DNA of 64,000 nucleotides from Octopus sinensis (Eukaryota). The stretch spans positions 13,640,001 through 13,704,000 of the forward strand of contig NC_043014.1 in the NCBI RefSeq assembly GCF_006345805.1, written 5' to 3'. The position numbers were made by a program. Position 1 is the stretch's first letter, and each line of letters opens with the position of its first letter. Of the stretch, positions 1 to 42,000 are shown piece by piece.

Positions 1-3000
1 CCAGTCAAAATATTCTGCCTGTTTTATGTCTAAACCCAGTAAGATCTTGTCACTTGTGCTAGTCTTACAATAGCATTCTGAAGATAAAGAATCACATCAT
101 TGAAATCTTGAAACTATGAGATAATGCATGATTACTTCAAATCAATGTGGATAAATATGCATTACATTTGACCTTGTGAAGGCTAGTGAAGGCGTATGGC
201 TCAGTGGTTAGAGTGTCGAGCTTATGATCATGAGGTTGTGAGTTCAAATCCTGGACCAGGCTGTGTGTTGTGTTCTTGAGCAAGACACTTTATTTCATGT
301 TGTTCCAGTTCACTCAGCTGTAGAAATGAGTTGCGACATCACTGGTGCCAAACTGTATTGGCCTTTGCCTTTCCCTTGGATAATACTGGTGGCATGGAAA
401 GGGGAGGCTGGTATGCATGGGCGACTACTGGTCTTCCATAAACAACCTTGCCTGGACTTGTGCCTAGGAGGGTAACTTTCAAGGTGCAATCCCATGGTCA
501 GACATGACTGAAGGGGGTCTCAGCTCAGCAACATTTGACCTTGGTTATGTTTGTACTCGGAACGTAAGGATCTGGAAGTAATGCTGTTATACATTTTGTC
601 TGGTGTGCTAATGATTCTGCCAGCTCATTGCCTTTCTAATTCTTTCTACTATAAGCACAAAGCCTGAAATTTTGGAGGAGGGAGCTAATCAATTACATTG
701 CCCCCATTGCTCAACTGGTACTAATTTTGTTCCCCCTGAAATCAAATTCGATGACTGACATCTGTGCTAGTGGAGCACTAAGAGTACCTATTTCTTTATT
801 ACCCACAAGGGGCTAAATGTAGAGGGGACAAACAAGGACAGACATAGGTATTAAGTCGATTACATTGACCCCAGTGTGGAGTACCATACAAGCGTGATCG
901 TTGCCAGAGCAACAAGCTGGCCTCCATGCTGATGGCACGTAGAAAAGCACCATTCGAGCGTGATCATTACCTACATCGCCTTATTGGCACTCGGGCTGGT
1001 GGCACATGAAAAGACATTCGAACAAGGTCGTTGCCAGTGCCACTGGACTGGCTCCTGTGCAGGTGGCACATAAAAAGCATCATTGAGCATGGCCGTTGCC
1101 AGTACTGCCTGACTGGCCCTCGTGCTGGTGGCACGTAAAAGCACCCACTACACTCTCGGAGTGGTTGGCGTTAGGAAGGGCATCCAGCTGTAGAAACTCT
1201 GCCAGATCAGATTGGAGTCTGGTGCAGCCATCTGGTTCGCTAGACCTCAGTCAAATTGTCCAACCCATGCTAGCATGGAAAGCGGACGTTAAACAATGAT
1301 GATGATGATGATAATGACCTCAAAGGACAAAAAGCAAAGTCAGCCTGAGTAGCTCTTGAACTAAGAACATGGAGAACCAGATGAAACACCACTAAACATT
1401 TTCCCCAGCATACTAACAATTCTGCCATCTCACCAACTTCTCACGACAGTAAGTAACAACATACTAACAACGCAAAGAGAGAAATTATGAATGACACAAT
1501 ATGATGAATTTGGAAAGTTCTGGAAGAATGAAGAGAAAGAGTAGCAATGAAATCAATTAATTAGACCTTACTGTATTACATACCTGTAAAGAGAGTAGCA
1601 TGAGGCTGCTATGGCCTAAGCACAGTTGGATGAAGGGTCTGGTGTTGTCATCACGAATAGTATTGTTGTCTAACTGTCACAGAAAGAACAAGATGGTTAA
1701 TTACACACAAACACATACATAACAGATATAGGTTTGTGTGTATGCATATGTATATAGAGATAAACAAATGTATGTAAATATCAATATATATATGTATATA
1801 GTGTGTGTATATAAATACATACAGATATATGTACAGGGTGGGCCAAAACACACACACAAAATAAGTTCAATATGTTCAGAAGTTTATCAAAGAGATGCTT
1901 CAGTTTTTTTTAAATTGAATAAAATAATGAATACACATGTACATGTATATGATGAACAAAAATAATAATAATAATAATAATAACAATATAATAATAATAA
2001 TAACAACAATATAATAATAATAATAATAATAATAATAATAATAATAATAATAATAATAATAATTTAACATCCATTGTCCATGCTGGCATAGGTTGGACAG
2101 TTTAACCAGGGCTGGCAAGCAGAGGGGCTGTACCAGACTCCAGTCTGATTTGGCATGGTTTCCATGGCTGGATGCCCTTCCTAACACCAAACTCTCCAAG
2201 AGTGTAATGGGTGTTTTTATATTCCACTGGCACAAGTACCAGTTGCATGACACATGAATCTACCATGACTGTGATTTCATATTGCTGAGGGTCTTGGCCA
2301 TTTGCCATTGTCTCTGTGAGGCCCAACGCTCAAAAGATGCCTTTTATGTGCCACCGACATAAAGTGCTAGTTGCGCAGCACTGGCACAGGTGATACTTAC
2401 TTGACACTGGCATTGGCCACATTGCCTCTGTGAGGCCAAACACTCGAAAGGCGCTTTTTAATAATAATAATGGAATGTTCTGTAGAGGTTCTACAAAAAG
2501 TTTGCCTCTTAGGGACGGGATAGATTACTAGGAGGGTTTTAAGCATTTGAAAGATTACTGAAAGCTTGTGGATACCTAAGTTTACAGGTAGTAATCCACT
2601 ACCCACATAAATTCTACTAGGAATAAGAACGAACATGAGTCAAATCAATGACAATAATGTCACGATATAAATAAAATGCCAAATGTTTTAGTGCGTGACT
2701 TTTGAAATTTCCTCTGTTGGAAATTTCTGGCAAATTCCTGCTGTATGTGTGAACTCTTCCTGGTGTGGTGCAGTCGTTTGTTGTATTACTACTTGTATTG
2801 TGTGTTGAGTATCTCATTAGTATCATCCATCCCTGCCAGGGGGAGTGCCTTCTCCATTGTCATCAGTATTTTTGATACCTGCTGGGGGAATGGCCAGTAA
2901 TAGTCACTATCCTATTGTAGGATATCAACTATCCTATTACTGTAATAGGATATTACTGTAGGATATGGTTGAACACACCATTTGTTCTGTGGTGTTTGGC

Positions 3001-39000: not shown

Positions 39001-42000
39001 CCATGTCCCTTAGTCCTACTTGTCCTGCAAGTTACTCAGTACCCTCACTGCTGTTGAACTCAGAGCATGAAGACAGAAAAATGCTGCTAAGCATTTTATC
39101 CACCCATGCTAATGAGTCTACTAGTTCACTGCATTTATAATAATAATTATAACAATCATTTCTACACTAGGCACAAGGCCTGATATTTTGGGGCAGGAGG
39201 TCAGTTGATTACATCGACCCTAGTACTCAACTGGTACTTATTTTATCGACCCTGAAAGGATGAAAGGTAAAGTTGACCTCAGCAGAATTTGAACTCAGAA
39301 CATAAAGGTGGATGAAATGCTTCTAAGCATTTTGCCTGGTGTGCTAGTGATTCTGCCAGCTTGCTGCCTTAAAAAAAAAATGATGATGATAATAATAATA
39401 ATAATAATAATAATAATAATAATAATAATAATAATAATAATAATTATAATAATAATTATAATCCTTTCTACTGGAGGCACAAGGCCTGACATTGCTGAGG
39501 AGGGGACCAGTCGATTACATCGACCCCAGTATGTAACTGGTCCTTAATTTATCAAACCCAAAAGGATGAAAGGCAAAGTTGGCCTCAGTGGAATTTGAAC
39601 TCAGAACGTAAAAGTGGATGAAATGCCTCTAAGCATTTTACCTGGTGTGCTAGCAATTCTGCCAATTTGCTGACTTAAACTATACTATATATATTACCAT
39701 ATAGATGTGCTGTTGGTTAAAATAAATTTTTATTGACATGACTAAATTATTGATCATAGGTGTATACCTAACCTGTCTTTGATAATTTAGACTGTCCGCA
39801 TATCTTTTGCCTAGATATCTTACCCATGGCCTTACAGTGTATTAAAATGTGTTGTTGTATTAAAATGTGTTCAAAGCGGTGTTCCAGCATGGCCACAGTC
39901 AATGACTGAAACAAGTAAAATATCAAAGGCAAGATAAATACCAATGAAAAATATTTTATTTTAGAAAATACATACCAGGTGTGAACGACTCTGACAAACT
40001 GACATCAAAATTTCTGGAATCGGTCAGGAAGTCTAAGATGTCTTGAGGCTCATATTCAGATGAATGTTCAGTGATATCACTAGCAAACATTACGGTTTTT
40101 TCTTTCTCACAGACCATTTTTAGAAGAGGAAATGACTCGGACAGCTTATATGGTAACGCTCTACCTTTTCCTATAGTTACTGATTTAAGGACAAAAGAAA
40201 AGAAGTAAGAAAAAAAAGAAACTAAGATTATAATTTTCCCAATTATTAATCAAAAAATGAAAAAATGAAAAAATCAAAAATTAAAATTGATCAACATGAA
40301 TGGAAATTGTTGCTGTGATATCAGTGCTGGTGGCACATAAGAGAACCATCCGAACGTGGACGTTGCCAGTGCCGCCCTGACTGGCTTCCGTGCTGGTGGC
40401 ATGTAAAAAGCACCATCCGAGTGCGGCCATTTGCCAGCCTCGCCTGGCCTCCGTGCCCGTTTGCCAGACTTGTCTGGCACCTGTGCAGGTGGCATGTAAA
40501 AAGCACCCACTACACTCATGGAGTGGTTGGCGTTAGGAAGGGCATCCAGCTGTAGAAACATTGCCAGATCAGACTGGGCCTGGTGCAGCCTTCTGGCTTC
40601 CCAGACCCCAGTTGAACCGTCCAACCCATGCCAGCATGGAAAGCGGACGCTAAACGATGATGATGATGATGATGATTAACCTCTTTTGACAACACTACAT
40701 TTCAATCCATTTCATCAATGATTGTCATCAGTTATCTTATTCTTATTCTTATATACTCTTGGTTTAGAAATAAAAGTTCATAGTTCAAATCCAGTCAGAT
40801 ATGTACACATTCAGAAGTAGCACATCTCATGACAATCAGAGATCAAACTCATATAAATGTAGTGTGTGTGTATTATATATTTATCTGGATGAATTTATCT
40901 TTGTCCTTTAATAGGAATTTCCTCATACGTCATTACATGGAAAAATGCAAGCAAGAGAAATAACATTCTTAAGATTATAAACCTGGAAAATTACAGGACA
41001 ACTTATTATATTTGGTAAAGTACAGAACAAGAAAAATTTTTACTGAAAATATTTAGATTTAGAATTAGCTTTTATTAAAACCAAAAATTTTATTACAAGT
41101 TATTACTTCTATTTGTTATAACTTGTTACTTCTATTAAAAATAAAAAAAATAACTCAAAATATTTTTTGCTCTTTAAAAAAAATTAATTTTAAAAATTAT
41201 TTATTAATAATTAGAAATTTGAAAATAGATTATAAAAAATAATAGTAGTACATAATTAGTTAGTACAATAAGTAGAATAATACAAAAATTAGTTATATAT
41301 TACAGTAAAATCTACCTATACCAACAAATTCACAGTAAAATTTACTTGAGTTATTGCCTGAGTTATTGCCAAGTCTTCACATTTTTAGTTTTGACCCAAT
41401 GCCTATTTACATAATGAATTTGCCTACCGTATATACTGTTCTATTTTGCATAAAACTTTAGTTATATTGGTACTTCTGGCTCTCATTTTTAAAGTATTCT
41501 AGTGTGTCAATATTTTAACAAAATGACGGTGCCTTTTTTAATTATAATGTTAATTTGTAAATTAAAATCAAATAATTTTTAATATACAAACTTTATCCTT
41601 AGCTGTAATATTTTAAGTAAAAATTTTATTGTTCTGTACTTTACCAGATGTAATAACTTGTCCTGTAATTATATCCCTAAGAATATTATTTCTCTTGCTC
41701 ACATTTTTCCATGTAATCCATGTGTTTTCCAGGCTATACTATTATGCTAATTAATAATGTATCAAATGTGTCAGTTAGCATTGTTGCTTATAATTTTTTA
41801 TCACAATGATGCTGGTAATGTACATTAAAAGTCCTCTCAGAGAACTATATTCATAAAAAAGGATAAAAGTATATTATCACCCTCAAATTTGAGAAACAAA
41901 CACTCATAACTTTTTTTTTCTTTTAAAACTTCATTGCATAAGATTGATACCATGAAATTCCTTGAATTGAGCTCTATCATTTAAGCTTAATTAAAATATA

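What the first reader, a model, noticed from the sequence alone, without database searches (positions are those of the whole stretch)
1584..40179. Hidden 10-exon LRRC74-like gene across 39 kb of transposon debris
No exon is long enough to stand out in the ORF track. Ten exons of 72-204 nt with GT-AG ends and mutually consistent phases (1-1, 1-1, 1-0, 0-0, 0-1, 1-0, 0-0, 0-2, 2-0, 0-0) splice into 363 stop-free codons. The 28-aa RI-type LRR periodicity carries across the junctions. Resemblance to vertebrate LRRC74A/B is from memory. The copy looks strongly diverged, so it may be a lineage-specific paralogue that is unannotated or mis-annotated.
Basis: partly seen in the sequence, partly recalled or inferred. 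Interest (0 to 1): 0.7.

Follow-up and report, generated by a model that had tools for sequence, protein, structure and literature searches.

The report
Split-up leucine-rich repeat gene, probably ciliary
A real, intact animal gene for a ribonuclease-inhibitor-type leucine-rich repeat protein lies on the minus strand as ten small exons among transposon-filled introns; it most resembles a sperm-tail and cilium protein (LRRC74A) and is an ordinary gene.

Summary
There are ten exons of 72-204 nt (40179..1584), all AG/GT-bounded, with phases 1-1,1-1,1-0,0-0,0-1,1-0,0-0,0-2,2-0,0-0. The total is 1091 nt, which is 2 bases plus 363 codons, with no in-frame or split-codon stop. Exons 4-9 are firmly RI-type LRR. 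Pfam LRR_6 matches E5-E8. Leave-one-exon-out ranks are 1, 12, 1, 4, 1, 1 of 2323 segments. The 28-residue register is kept at 5 of 7 junctions. E10 has weak support. E1-E3 rest on splice sites, phase and unique sequence only. 40% of the window is repeated and 0 of 1091 exon bases are. The introns hold reverse-transcriptase, Helitron-type helicase and SINE-like debris. The best solved-structure relative overall is chain 9fqr_Km of the bovine sperm axoneme, probably LRRC74A of the nexin-dynein regulatory complex. It is top for only 2 of 6 matching exons and its label is wrong, so LRRC74 membership is likely but unproven. Translation probably starts at an ATG inside E1, and the gene runs off the low end of the window. 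The finding is ordinary.

The parts
39976..40179 (-). Exon 1 (204 nt; 2 leading bases, 67 codons, 1 trailing base). Probably the first coding exon, encoding an acidic, Ser-rich N-terminus with no detectable relatives.
   Evidence: Acceptor tccttaaatcag|, donor |gtatgtat, no stop. Unique sequence. Pfam found 0 families, PDB gave only chance-level hits at E 0.21 and 4.9, and the Atlas gave 0.85 with recognition below threshold. 34 equally good splice-only candidates exist in the window.
40115..40117 (-). Likely start codon (ATG in aaaATGg context), 20 codons inside exon 1.
   Evidence: Read directly from the sequence. It places 84 residues before LRR1, against about 89 in chain 9fqr_Km (inferred from the positions printed).
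38390..38461 (-). Exon 2 (72 nt, phase 1-1, 23 full codons). Putative first half of the N-terminal cap of the LRR domain.
   Evidence: Strong acceptor (score 15, top 0.8% of AG sites) and moderate donor. Unique sequence. No Pfam hit and no PDB hit. 18 equally good splice-only candidates in the window.
34296..34405 (-). Exon 3 (110 nt, phase 1-0, 36 codons). Cap plus a degenerate first repeat (LRR1).
   Evidence: Strong donor AAG|gtaggtaa (top 0.5% of GT sites). Weak Pfam DUF7688 match, 16.1 bits, E 0.01, below the cut-off of 27. 0 PDB hits. Leave-one-out repeat profile rank 850 of 2323, which is no support.
31427..31534 (-). Exon 4 (108 nt, phase 0-0, 36 codons). End of LRR1, LRR2, start of LRR3.
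   Evidence: Leave-one-out rank 1 of 2323. PDB: LRRC34 23.1 bits, 9fqr_Km 18.4 bits, the latter at the collinear position 115-144. No Pfam hit on its own.
29006..29099 (-). Exon 5 (94 nt, phase 0-1, 31 codons). LRR3 and start of LRR4.
   Evidence: Pfam LRR_6 17.0 bits, E 0.006. PDB top hit 9fqr_Km 26.3 bits, E 2.9e-5, next 16.2. Perfect donor CAG|gtaagt. Leave-one-out rank 12 of 2323.
22408..22538 (-). Exon 6 (131 nt, phase 1-0, 43 codons). LRR4 and LRR5.
   Evidence: Pfam LRR_6 19.9 bits. PDB top hit 9fqr_Km 40.3 bits, E 1.1e-9, aligned over the whole exon. Atlas 0.98 to LRR_6 clusters. Leave-one-out rank 1.
15409..15495 (-). Exon 7 (87 nt, phase 0-0, 29 codons). LRR6, with Cys in place of the ladder Asn.
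   Evidence: Pfam LRR_6 20.7 bits, E 3.8e-4. PDB top hit TCTE1/DRC5 19.0 bits; 9fqr_Km is fifth at 16.1. Leave-one-out rank 4.
11410..11525 (-). Exon 8 (116 nt, phase 0-2, 38 codons). LRR7 and start of LRR8.
   Evidence: Pfam LRR_6 26.6 bits, above the curated cut-off of 23.4. PDB: ribonuclease inhibitor 35.1 and 35.0 bits, then 9fqr_Km 34.4 at the collinear position 256-289. Leave-one-out rank 1.
6622..6700 (-). Exon 9 (79 nt, phase 2-0, 26 codons). LRR8 and start of LRR9.
   Evidence: Leave-one-out rank 1 of 2323, E 0.0012. PDB top hits are an axonemal 'leucine-rich repeat protein' 9y6s_8b at 20.3 bits and LRRC34 at 16.9; 9fqr_Km is not listed. No Pfam hit alone.
1584..1673 (-). Exon 10 (90 nt, phase 0-0, 30 codons). 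LRR9 and start of LRR10. It ends at a donor, so the gene continues beyond it.
   Evidence: Acceptor ctttctgtgacag| and donor CAG|gtatgtaa (top 0.5% of GT sites). Register fits E9. Leave-one-out rank only 116 of 2323. 0 Pfam hits and 0 PDB hits. No LRR-like phase-0 exon was found in 1..1583.

Best explanation
This is the larger, 5' part of an intact protein-coding gene of an animal genome, transcribed from the minus strand. Ten small exons spread over 38.6 kb encode a short acidic N-terminus, an N-terminal cap and nine and a quarter 28-residue repeats of the ribonuclease-inhibitor type. Such repeats stack into a curved solenoid that serves as a protein-binding surface (established knowledge). 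The introns (1.5-6.9 kb) have been filled by retrotransposon, Helitron-type and SINE-like insertions, which is why the gene is invisible in an ORF track. Translation most likely begins at the ATG at 40117 inside exon 1. The last quarter of the protein is most likely encoded beyond the low end of the window. By best available similarity the protein is an LRRC74A-like subunit of the motile axoneme, so I infer that it sits as a structural adaptor in the distal lobe of the nexin-dynein regulatory complex of sperm flagella and motile cilia. Shown here: the exon structure, the intact frame, the RI-type repeats and their continuity, and the transposon content. Inferred: the LRRC74A identity of the best-matching chain, orthology, the start codon, the missing 3' exons, and the axonemal role.
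For: The exon model is exact and intact, with all phases consistent. Pfam LRR_6 matches 4 of 10 exons at E <= 0.006, and one of them is above the curated cut-off on 38 residues alone. Leave-one-exon-out profile ranks for E4-E9 are 1, 12, 1, 4, 1, 1 of 2323 stop-free segments on both strands. 5 of 7 junctions are in register. 0 of 1091 exon bases are repeated, against 40.4% of the window. The acceptors lie in the top 0.2-10.8% of AG sites and the donors in the top 0-18.6% of GT sites. PDB was searched exon by exon for 10 of 10 exons. Six exons (E4-E9) hit LRR chains, and the hits are dominated by axonemal RI-type LRR proteins (9fqr, 8j07, 8glv, 9e5c, 9y6s). 9fqr_Km is first for E5 and E6, second for E4, third for E8 and fifth for E7, and has the highest summed score. 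The best stretches of E4 and E8 fall at the positions a collinear alignment predicts. 9FQR is the bovine sperm 96-nm repeat, in which LRRC74A was newly assigned to the N-DRC distal lobe (PMC11779644, passages). The chain has its repeat asparagines at about 126, 154, 211, 239, 267, 295 and 323 and about 89 residues before LRR1. The present model has 84 residues from the ATG (positions read from the alignments). LRRC74A-like genes are reported in a cephalopod (passage) and as a hub gene of a module correlated with a ciliary band in an annelid (passages).
Against: 9fqr_Km is labelled 'Tubulin alpha-3 chain' in the table, so its identity as LRRC74A is my inference from the paper. The supplementary table that would settle it was closed. 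The chain is not the top hit for E4 (LRRC34), E7 (TCTE1/DRC5) or E8 (ribonuclease inhibitor), and phmmer does not list it at all for E9 at E <= 10. Only 2 of 5 best stretches are collinear. The family-specific N-terminal exons E1, E2 and E3 and exon E10 found no PDB relative. The Atlas gave no LRRC74 name. PDB holds few RI-type LRR families, so a closer unnamed family cannot be excluded. E1 and E2 have no content evidence at all. No expression data, no orthologue and no annotation were available. The C-terminus is not in the window.
Confidence: 0.6

Rival explanations
1. It is a real, intact RI-type LRR gene of another family (LRRC34-like, DRC5/TCTE1-like, or an invertebrate family with no solved structure), not an LRRC74 member. 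The similarity to 9fqr_Km would then be generic to RI-type repeats.
For: LRRC34 is the top hit for E4 (23.1 against 18.4 bits) and outranks 9fqr_Km for E9, where that chain is not listed. TCTE1/DRC5 is top for E7 and ribonuclease inhibitor for E8. The non-repeat exons E1-E3 match nothing. The Atlas returns only generic LRR_6 clusters.
Against: Summed over exons, 9fqr_Km scores 135.5 bits against 86.4 for human LRRC34. It is clearly first for the two exons with the most significant hits (E6 at 1.1e-9, E5 at 2.9e-5). The repeat number and the N-terminal length are similar to that chain.
Confidence: 0.27
2. It is a decaying or lineage-specific diverged paralogue that is no longer under purifying selection or has taken a new role.
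For: E1, E2 and E10 lack detectable relatives. LRR1 and LRR9 are degenerate: profile ranks are 850 for E3 and 116 for E10. The gene sits in heavy transposon load.
Against: There are no stops in 363 codons across ten exons, and 10 of 10 acceptors and donors are canonical. The ladder Asn or Cys is kept in 8 of 9 complete repeats (peptides, my count). No transposon has entered any exon. Degenerate first and last repeats and unconserved N-termini are normal in LRR proteins (established knowledge).
Confidence: 0.08
3. The exons are the C-terminal LRR sensor domain of an NLR-type (NACHT-LRR) immune gene.
For: NLRP1, NLRP3, NLRP4F and NLRP14 chains appear among the weaker hits for E6 and E8. RI-type repeats are what NLRs use.
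Against: No NACHT or other domain was found in any of the 20 long frames scanned, including 24 kb upstream of E1. An N-terminal cap and a plausible start codon lie directly before LRR1. The NLR hits score far below the axonemal chains.
Confidence: 0.04
4. It is a chance concatenation of open AG..GT intervals and not a gene.
For: Splice-only candidates are common: 8 to 34 in the window are as good as the four weakest-supported exons. This would suffice to explain E1 and E2 taken alone.
Against: Six exons are the top-ranked or near-top LRR segments of 2323, all on one strand, in order and in register. An independent Pfam model recognises four of them. The plus strand gives nothing comparable: the best background score is 9.8 bits.
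Confidence: 0.01

Closest known systems
LRRC74A (vertebrate; assigned to the N-DRC distal lobe of bovine sperm axonemes, PDB 9FQR; PMC11779644)
   Same: It has RI-type 28-residue repeats and about ten of them. No other domain is present. The N-terminal stretch before LRR1 is short and of similar length (84 against about 89 residues). The summed exon-by-exon similarity is the best in PDB, and this chain is top for E5 and E6. E4 and E8 align at collinear positions.
   Different: Identity over E6 is only about 30% (by eye). The chain is not the best hit for E4, E7, E8 or E9. The N-terminal exons find nothing. The chain's identity as LRRC74A is inferred, not read from its label. The C-terminal part (about 120 residues of the chain) has no counterpart in the window.
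LRRC34 (radial-spoke-associated axonemal RI-type LRR protein; chains 8j07_w, 9fqr_MA)
   Same: It has the same repeat type, a similar size (451-464 residues) and an axonemal location. It is the best hit for E4 and outranks 9fqr_Km for E9.
   Different: Its summed score is lower (86.4 against 135.5 bits). It is not listed for E5 and E7.
Ribonuclease inhibitor RNH1 (prototype of the RI-type LRR)
   Same: It shares the consensus L..L.L..N.[IL]...G...L...L and is the top hit for E8 (35.1 bits).
   Different: RNH1 alternates 28- and 29-residue repeats, with one repeat pair per exon (recalled). Here the repeats are uniformly 28 residues, and the introns fall at varied repeat positions (after positions 4, 7, 23, 24, 6 and 5). 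RNH1 is listed for only 2 of 10 exons (E8, and E5 at 13.3 bits).
DRC5 / TCTE1 (N-DRC subunit with RI-type LRRs)
   Same: It has the same repeat type and belongs to the same complex as proposed here. It is the top hit for E7 (19.0 bits, E 0.01).
   Different: Its scores are weak elsewhere (16-26 bits for E6 and E8, and 13.7 for E4 for the Chlamydomonas chain). Its repeats lie in the C-terminal half of a roughly 500-residue protein (positions).

Membership tests
RI-type LRR proteins (Pfam LRR_6, PF13516) | Repeats of 28-29 residues with the pattern L..L.L..(N/C).[IL]...G...L...L, several in tandem | tested here: met
   Nine complete 28-residue repeats plus the start of a tenth are present, and 8 of the 9 keep N or C at the ladder position (peptides). 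Leave-one-out profile ranks are 1, 12, 1, 4, 1, 1 for E4-E9. 5 of 7 junctions are in register.
RI-type LRR proteins (Pfam LRR_6, PF13516) | Match to the curated Pfam model | tested here: met
   E8 scores 26.6 bits, above the cut-off of 23.4. E5, E6 and E7 score 17.0, 19.9 and 20.7 bits (E 0.006 to 0.0004), below the cut-off, as single short exons. 6 of 10 exons have no LRR_6 match. The Atlas gives 0.98 to LRR_6 clusters for E6.
LRRC74 (A/B) | Closest sequence relative is a named LRRC74 protein, not another RI-type LRR family | tested here: inconclusive
   Only PDB could be searched, exon by exon. The presumed LRRC74A chain 9fqr_Km ranks 1st for E5 and E6, 2nd for E4, 3rd for E8 and 5th for E7, and is absent for E9. 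E1, E2, E3 and E10 had no LRR hits. Its summed bits are the highest. The chain's label in the table is wrong, so its identity is inferred from PMC11779644. The large protein databases were closed and the joined peptide was not to be searched.
LRRC74 (A/B) | Architecture: short N-terminus, cap, about ten RI-type repeats, C-terminal tail, no other domain | tested here: inconclusive
   The N-terminus is 84 residues against about 89 in the chain, and at least 10 repeats compare with about 9-10 (positions). No other domain was found. The C-terminal tail lies outside the window.
LRRC74 (A/B) | Repeat-by-repeat collinearity with a family member | tested here: inconclusive
   The best-scoring stretch is at the collinear position for 2 of 5 exons (E4 at 115-144, E8 at 256-289). 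For E5, E6 and E7 the best stretch is one to four repeats away.
LRRC74 (A/B) | Intron positions and phases shared with vertebrate and mollusc LRRC74 genes | not testable with these tools
LRRC74 (A/B) | Expression in testis or ciliated tissue and location in the N-DRC | not testable with these tools
   No expression or proteome data for this genome. The literature covers other species only.
NLR (NACHT-LRR) proteins | NACHT NTPase domain encoded upstream of the LRR exons | tested here: not met
   No NACHT match was found in any of the 20 long open frames scanned across the window, 24 kb upstream of E1 included. Only frames of about 100 residues or more were scanned.
LRRC34 | Closest relative is LRRC34 | tested here: not met
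   LRRC34 is top only for E4. It is listed for E4, E6, E8 and E9 and not for E5 or E7. The sum is 86.4 bits against 135.5 for 9fqr_Km.

The most novel reading that the evidence does not exclude
The gene is a lineage-specific paralogue of the LRRC74 group whose N-terminal 90 residues (exons 1-2, with no detectable relative anywhere I could search) are a new module. That module would give the LRR solenoid a partner or location other than the N-DRC, and the gene would be missing or mis-modelled in the genome's annotation.
Probability: 0.08. Interest if true: 0.35.

Novelty: new member of a known kind. Interest (0 to 1): 0.15.

Why it matters
It matters little beyond correct annotation. If the LRRC74A assignment holds, this locus is the invertebrate counterpart of a subunit added to the nexin-dynein regulatory complex only in 2025. 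It could then be used to ask whether that subunit is conserved across bilaterian sperm and cilia. As a method check, the result shows that a reader without tools can assemble a correct ten-exon model from phase and repeat periodicity alone in transposon-rich sequence.

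Tried and rejected
The strict RI-LRR regex over six frames gave 3 hits. Two are in real exons and one is a phenylalanine-rich chance match on the plus strand at 54625-54693, which I rejected. The first profile was built from four segments and tested on the same segments. That is circular, so I replaced it with leave-one-exon-out tests. One search had a bug: it chose the wrong frame for E5's segment. One search supersedes it.

Pfam gave nothing for E1, E2, E4, E9 and E10, and only a weak DUF7688 match for E3. No paper in the searched library mentions DUF7688 or PF24737. 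PDB gave 0 hits for E3, E10 and E2 and chance-level hits only for E1. The Atlas gave no lead for E1 (0.85, recognition 1787, below the tool's 2300) and only generic LRR_6 clusters for E6.

The search for an eleventh exon in 1..1583 listed 13 phase-0 candidates, none LRR-like. I made no systematic search for coding exons upstream of 40179 other than Pfam on 10 long frames. Rfam found 0 families and ARAGORN 0 tRNAs. The search for LRRC74 together with octopus found 3 papers and listed 2, neither about an octopus LRRC74 gene.

By eye, E9 shares about 11 of 26 residues with the chain segment 295-320 printed. I could not score this, because the chain is not a stored sequence and phmmer did not report it, so it carries no weight.

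Left out:
- The search, fold or alignment of the joined 363-codon peptide.
- Any structure prediction, because single exons are too short to be informative.
- Complex prediction, because no binding claim rests on it.
- The scan of genome contigs, and the phage, plasmid and E. coli collections, because all are prokaryotic or viral and irrelevant to an animal gene.

Unchecked because closed: the search for homologous proteins, the search of protein representatives, the collections metagenome contigs and viral contigs, and the supplementary tables of PMC11779644, which may list the chain-to-protein assignment of 9FQR. I do not take the window for human. Its exons are only distantly similar to a bovine chain, and its interspersed repeats are a SINE-like family with 61-bp internal units.

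Full report
WHAT WAS CHECKED. The window has no N and is 38% G+C. The finding gave only outer coordinates, an exon count, a size range and a list of phases, so I had to find the exons again. A six-frame scan for the ribonuclease-inhibitor (RI) type leucine-rich repeat pattern put the signal on the minus strand (2 of 3 strict hits; a shorter motif hit 13 times on the minus strand and 3 times on the plus). Listing the stop-free segments that carry the motif and two rounds of a repeat profile built from the window's own segments gave six segments. Enumerating AG and GT sites in and around each segment, together with the 28-residue register, fixed their boundaries.

THE MODEL. On the minus strand the exons are: E1 40179..39976, E2 38461..38390, E3 34405..34296, E4 31534..31427, E5 29099..29006, E6 22538..22408, E7 15495..15409, E8 11525..11410, E9 6700..6622, E10 1673..1584. 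One search shows lengths of 204, 72, 110, 108, 94, 131, 87, 116, 79 and 90 nt. The sum is 1091 nt, which is 2 leading bases plus 363 codons. The phases are 1-1, 1-1, 1-0, 0-0, 0-1, 1-0, 0-0, 0-2, 2-0, 0-0. All 10 exons have a pyrimidine-rich tract with AG at the acceptor and GT at the donor. There is no in-frame stop in any exon, none of the four split codons is a stop, and the introns are 1514-6912 nt. I did not build, print or search the joined peptide.

IS IT MORE THAN CHANCE? For the core, yes.
(i) An independent model, Pfam LRR_6, recognises E5, E6, E7 and E8 (17.0, 19.9, 20.7 and 26.6 bits). E8 alone exceeds the curated cut-off of 23.4.
(ii) I built a repeat profile from all the other exons and ranked the left-out exon's segment among the 2323 remaining stop-free segments of both strands. 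The ranks are 1 (E4), 12 (E5), 1 (E6), 4 (E7), 1 (E8) and 1 (E9). E10 ranks 116 and E3 ranks 850. The best background segment never exceeds 9.8 bits (one search had a bug and is superseded).
(iii) When the same leave-one-out profiles assign each exon's register independently, 5 of 7 junctions are in register, where chance is about 1 in 28 each. E4>E5 fails only because of a 2-column gap in the profile alignment of E4. E3 cannot be placed.
(iv) 40.4% of the window is repeated within the window, but 0 of 1091 exon bases are.
(v) All 20 splice sites lie in the upper tail of a simple score over all 3653 AG and 3726 GT sites of that strand.

The limits must be stated as plainly. Splice-only candidates as good as E1, E2, E3 and E10 occur 34, 18, 8 and 8 times in the window. 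E1 and E2 have no content evidence of any kind. E3 has only a weak, below-threshold Pfam match to DUF7688 (16.1 bits, E 0.01), a family on which nothing is in print in the searched library. So E4-E9 are secure, E10 and E3 are probable, and E1 and E2 are plausible.

ANATOMY. E3 ends with a degenerate first repeat. E4 to E10 then carry repeats 2 to 9 and the first seven residues of repeat 10, all exactly 28 residues long. Asn or Cys stands at the ladder position in 8 of the 9 complete repeats (peptides). Introns interrupt the repeat at varied positions (after positions 4, 7, 23, 24, 6 and 5), so this is not a one-repeat-per-exon gene. E1 contains an ATG at 40117 in the context aaaATGg. E10 ends at a strong donor, and the remaining 1583 bases hold no LRR-like phase-0 exon (13 candidates, none fitting). 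The gene therefore most likely continues beyond the low end of the window.

SURROUNDINGS. The description of transposon debris is right. Pfam on 20 long open frames found:
- reverse transcriptase at 32663-32977 (minus strand, in intron 3; 38.9 bits);
- weaker reverse-transcriptase signs at 29583-30350 and 3749-5131 (plus strand);
- a PIF1-like helicase fragment at 19560-20156 (plus strand, in intron 6; 89.7 bits), and a second Pif1 piece at 47876-48427;
- an AP-endonuclease of the LINE type at 48979-49963 (minus strand).

A SINE-like element of about 350 bp, with internal 61-bp units, occurs in at least ten places at 72-80% identity on both strands. No NACHT or other domain exon, RNA family or tRNA was found.

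WHAT FAMILY? All ten exons were searched singly against the sequences of solved structures. E1 gave only chance-level hits, and E2, E3 and E10 gave none. E4-E9 hit RI-type LRR chains, most of them from axoneme structures (9fqr, 8j07, 8glv, 9e5c, 9y6s). One chain, 9fqr_Km (473 residues), stands out:
- first for E6 (40.3 bits, E 1.1e-9, aligned over all 43 residues);
- first for E5 (26.3 bits, next 16.2);
- second for E4, behind LRRC34 (18.4 against 23.1);
- third for E8, behind two ribonuclease inhibitors (34.4 against 35.1 and 35.0);
- fifth for E7, where TCTE1/DRC5 leads (16.1 against 19.0);
- not listed at all for E9, where an unnamed axonemal LRR protein and LRRC34 lead.

Its summed score is 135.5 bits, against 86.4 for human LRRC34. 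The table labels this chain 'Tubulin alpha-3 chain', which the printed alignments show to be wrong. Entry 9FQR is the bovine sperm 96-nm axonemal repeat, and the paper that reports it names LRRC74A and ANKEF1 as newly assigned components of the distal lobe of the nexin-dynein regulatory complex (PMC11779644; passages seen, supplements closed). LRRC34 and TCTE1 carry their own labels in that entry, so I infer that Km is LRRC74A. This inference was not verified.

From the positions printed, the chain has its first repeat at about residue 90 and ladder asparagines at about 126, 154, 211, 239, 267, 295 and 323. That gives nine or ten repeats and then about 120 further residues. The present model has 84 residues from the ATG to repeat 1 and at least ten repeats, and it would end at about residue 350 of the chain. 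The architectures agree as far as the window reaches. The best stretches of E4 and E8 are at the collinear positions, and those of E5, E6 and E7 are not (2 of 5). The ESM Atlas confirmed the RI-type class for E6 (0.98, LRR_6 clusters) without naming a family, and gave nothing for E1. Membership in LRRC74 is therefore the best available reading but remains inconclusive.

HOW IT MOST LIKELY WORKS. Shown: an intact gene encodes a solenoid of RI-type repeats with a short N-terminal extension and no catalytic or other domain. From established knowledge, such solenoids act as protein-binding scaffolds through their concave beta-sheet face. Inferred from the best match and the paper: the product is an adaptor in the distal lobe of the nexin-dynein regulatory complex. 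That complex links neighbouring doublet microtubules and helps regulate the dyneins in sperm flagella and motile cilia.

Three published observations are consistent with a conserved ciliary gene. [quoted passage not shown] LRRC74A is the top hub gene of a co-expression module correlated with the telotroch ciliary band of an annelid larva (passages). A Chlamydomonas axonemal IQ+LRR protein is only weakly related to LRRC74A (passage). None of these concerns this locus.

RIVALS. Another RI-type LRR family is possible (0.27), because four of six matching exons do not have 9fqr_Km first and the N-terminal exons match nothing. A decaying or lineage-specific paralogue is less likely (0.08), given the intact frame, canonical splice sites and exons free of transposons. 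The LRR part of an NLR gene is unlikely (0.04), with no NACHT in 24 kb upstream and a cap and start codon directly before repeat 1. Chance (0.01) is excluded for E4-E9.

VERDICT. The gene is an ordinary, intact, partial RI-type LRR gene, probably an LRRC74A-like axonemal subunit. Nothing here indicates unusual divergence, and whether it is annotated could not be checked. It counts as a new member of a known kind, and interest is low.

WHAT STAYED UNCHECKED. No eukaryotic annotation, orthologue or expression data were available. The organism was not identified.

Noticed in passing
window 19560-20156 (+) and 47876-48427 (+): Two fragments of a PIF1-like helicase. The first matches PF05970 at 89.7 bits and the second matches Pif1_2B at 48.2 bits. 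They are probably remains of Helitron-type transposons. The first lies inside intron 6 of the LRR gene, on the opposite strand.
   Followed up: partly
window 32663-32977 (-), 29583-30350 (+), 3749-5131 (+): Reverse-transcriptase remains. The first is a clear RVT_1 match (38.9 bits) in intron 3, on the same strand as the gene. The second is a weak RVT_1 match. The third is a 460-residue open frame with only a weak zf-RVT match (20.2 bits); it is the longest open frame in the window and may be a fairly young retroelement piece.
   Followed up: partly
window 48979-49963 (-): LINE-type AP endonuclease (Exo_endo_phos, 38.9 bits) split over two adjoining frames, which suggests a frameshifted retrotransposon upstream of the gene.
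   Followed up: no
window, e.g. 995-1315, 22927-23318, 26089-26414, 27736-28112, 34924-35300, 40250-40720, 51594-51911, 52387-52714: A SINE-like interspersed repeat of about 350 bp with internal tandem units of about 61-67 bp. It occurs in at least ten places at 72-80% identity, on both strands, mostly in the introns. ARAGORN found no tRNA-like head. The family was not named.
   Followed up: partly
Search of solved structures table, chain 9fqr_Km (u162423): This 473-residue chain is labelled 'Tubulin alpha-3 chain', but the printed alignments show a series of RI-type leucine-rich repeats. The label in the table is wrong for this sequence. It is probably the LRRC74A chain of the entry.
   Followed up: partly
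window 45530-46396 (-): A 288-residue open frame with no Pfam match. An overlapping frame at 45648-46178 was also blank. It remains unexplained.
   Followed up: partly
window 3047-3235; 47145-47658; 56009-56514; 60816-61063: Tandem arrays: a 94-bp unit repeated twice at 100% identity (a recent duplication), a 166-bp unit repeated 3.1 times at 91%, a 506-bp AT-rich ATAT/ACAT array, and (TTA)81. The stretch 60-62 kb is 93% covered by within-window repeats.
   Followed up: no
window 34296-34403 (-), exon 3: The cap and first-repeat exon gives a weak match (E 0.01) to Pfam DUF7688, a family on which no paper in the searched library says anything. If DUF7688 is an N-terminal cap of RI-type LRR proteins, that would be worth a note in Pfam.
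   Followed up: partly
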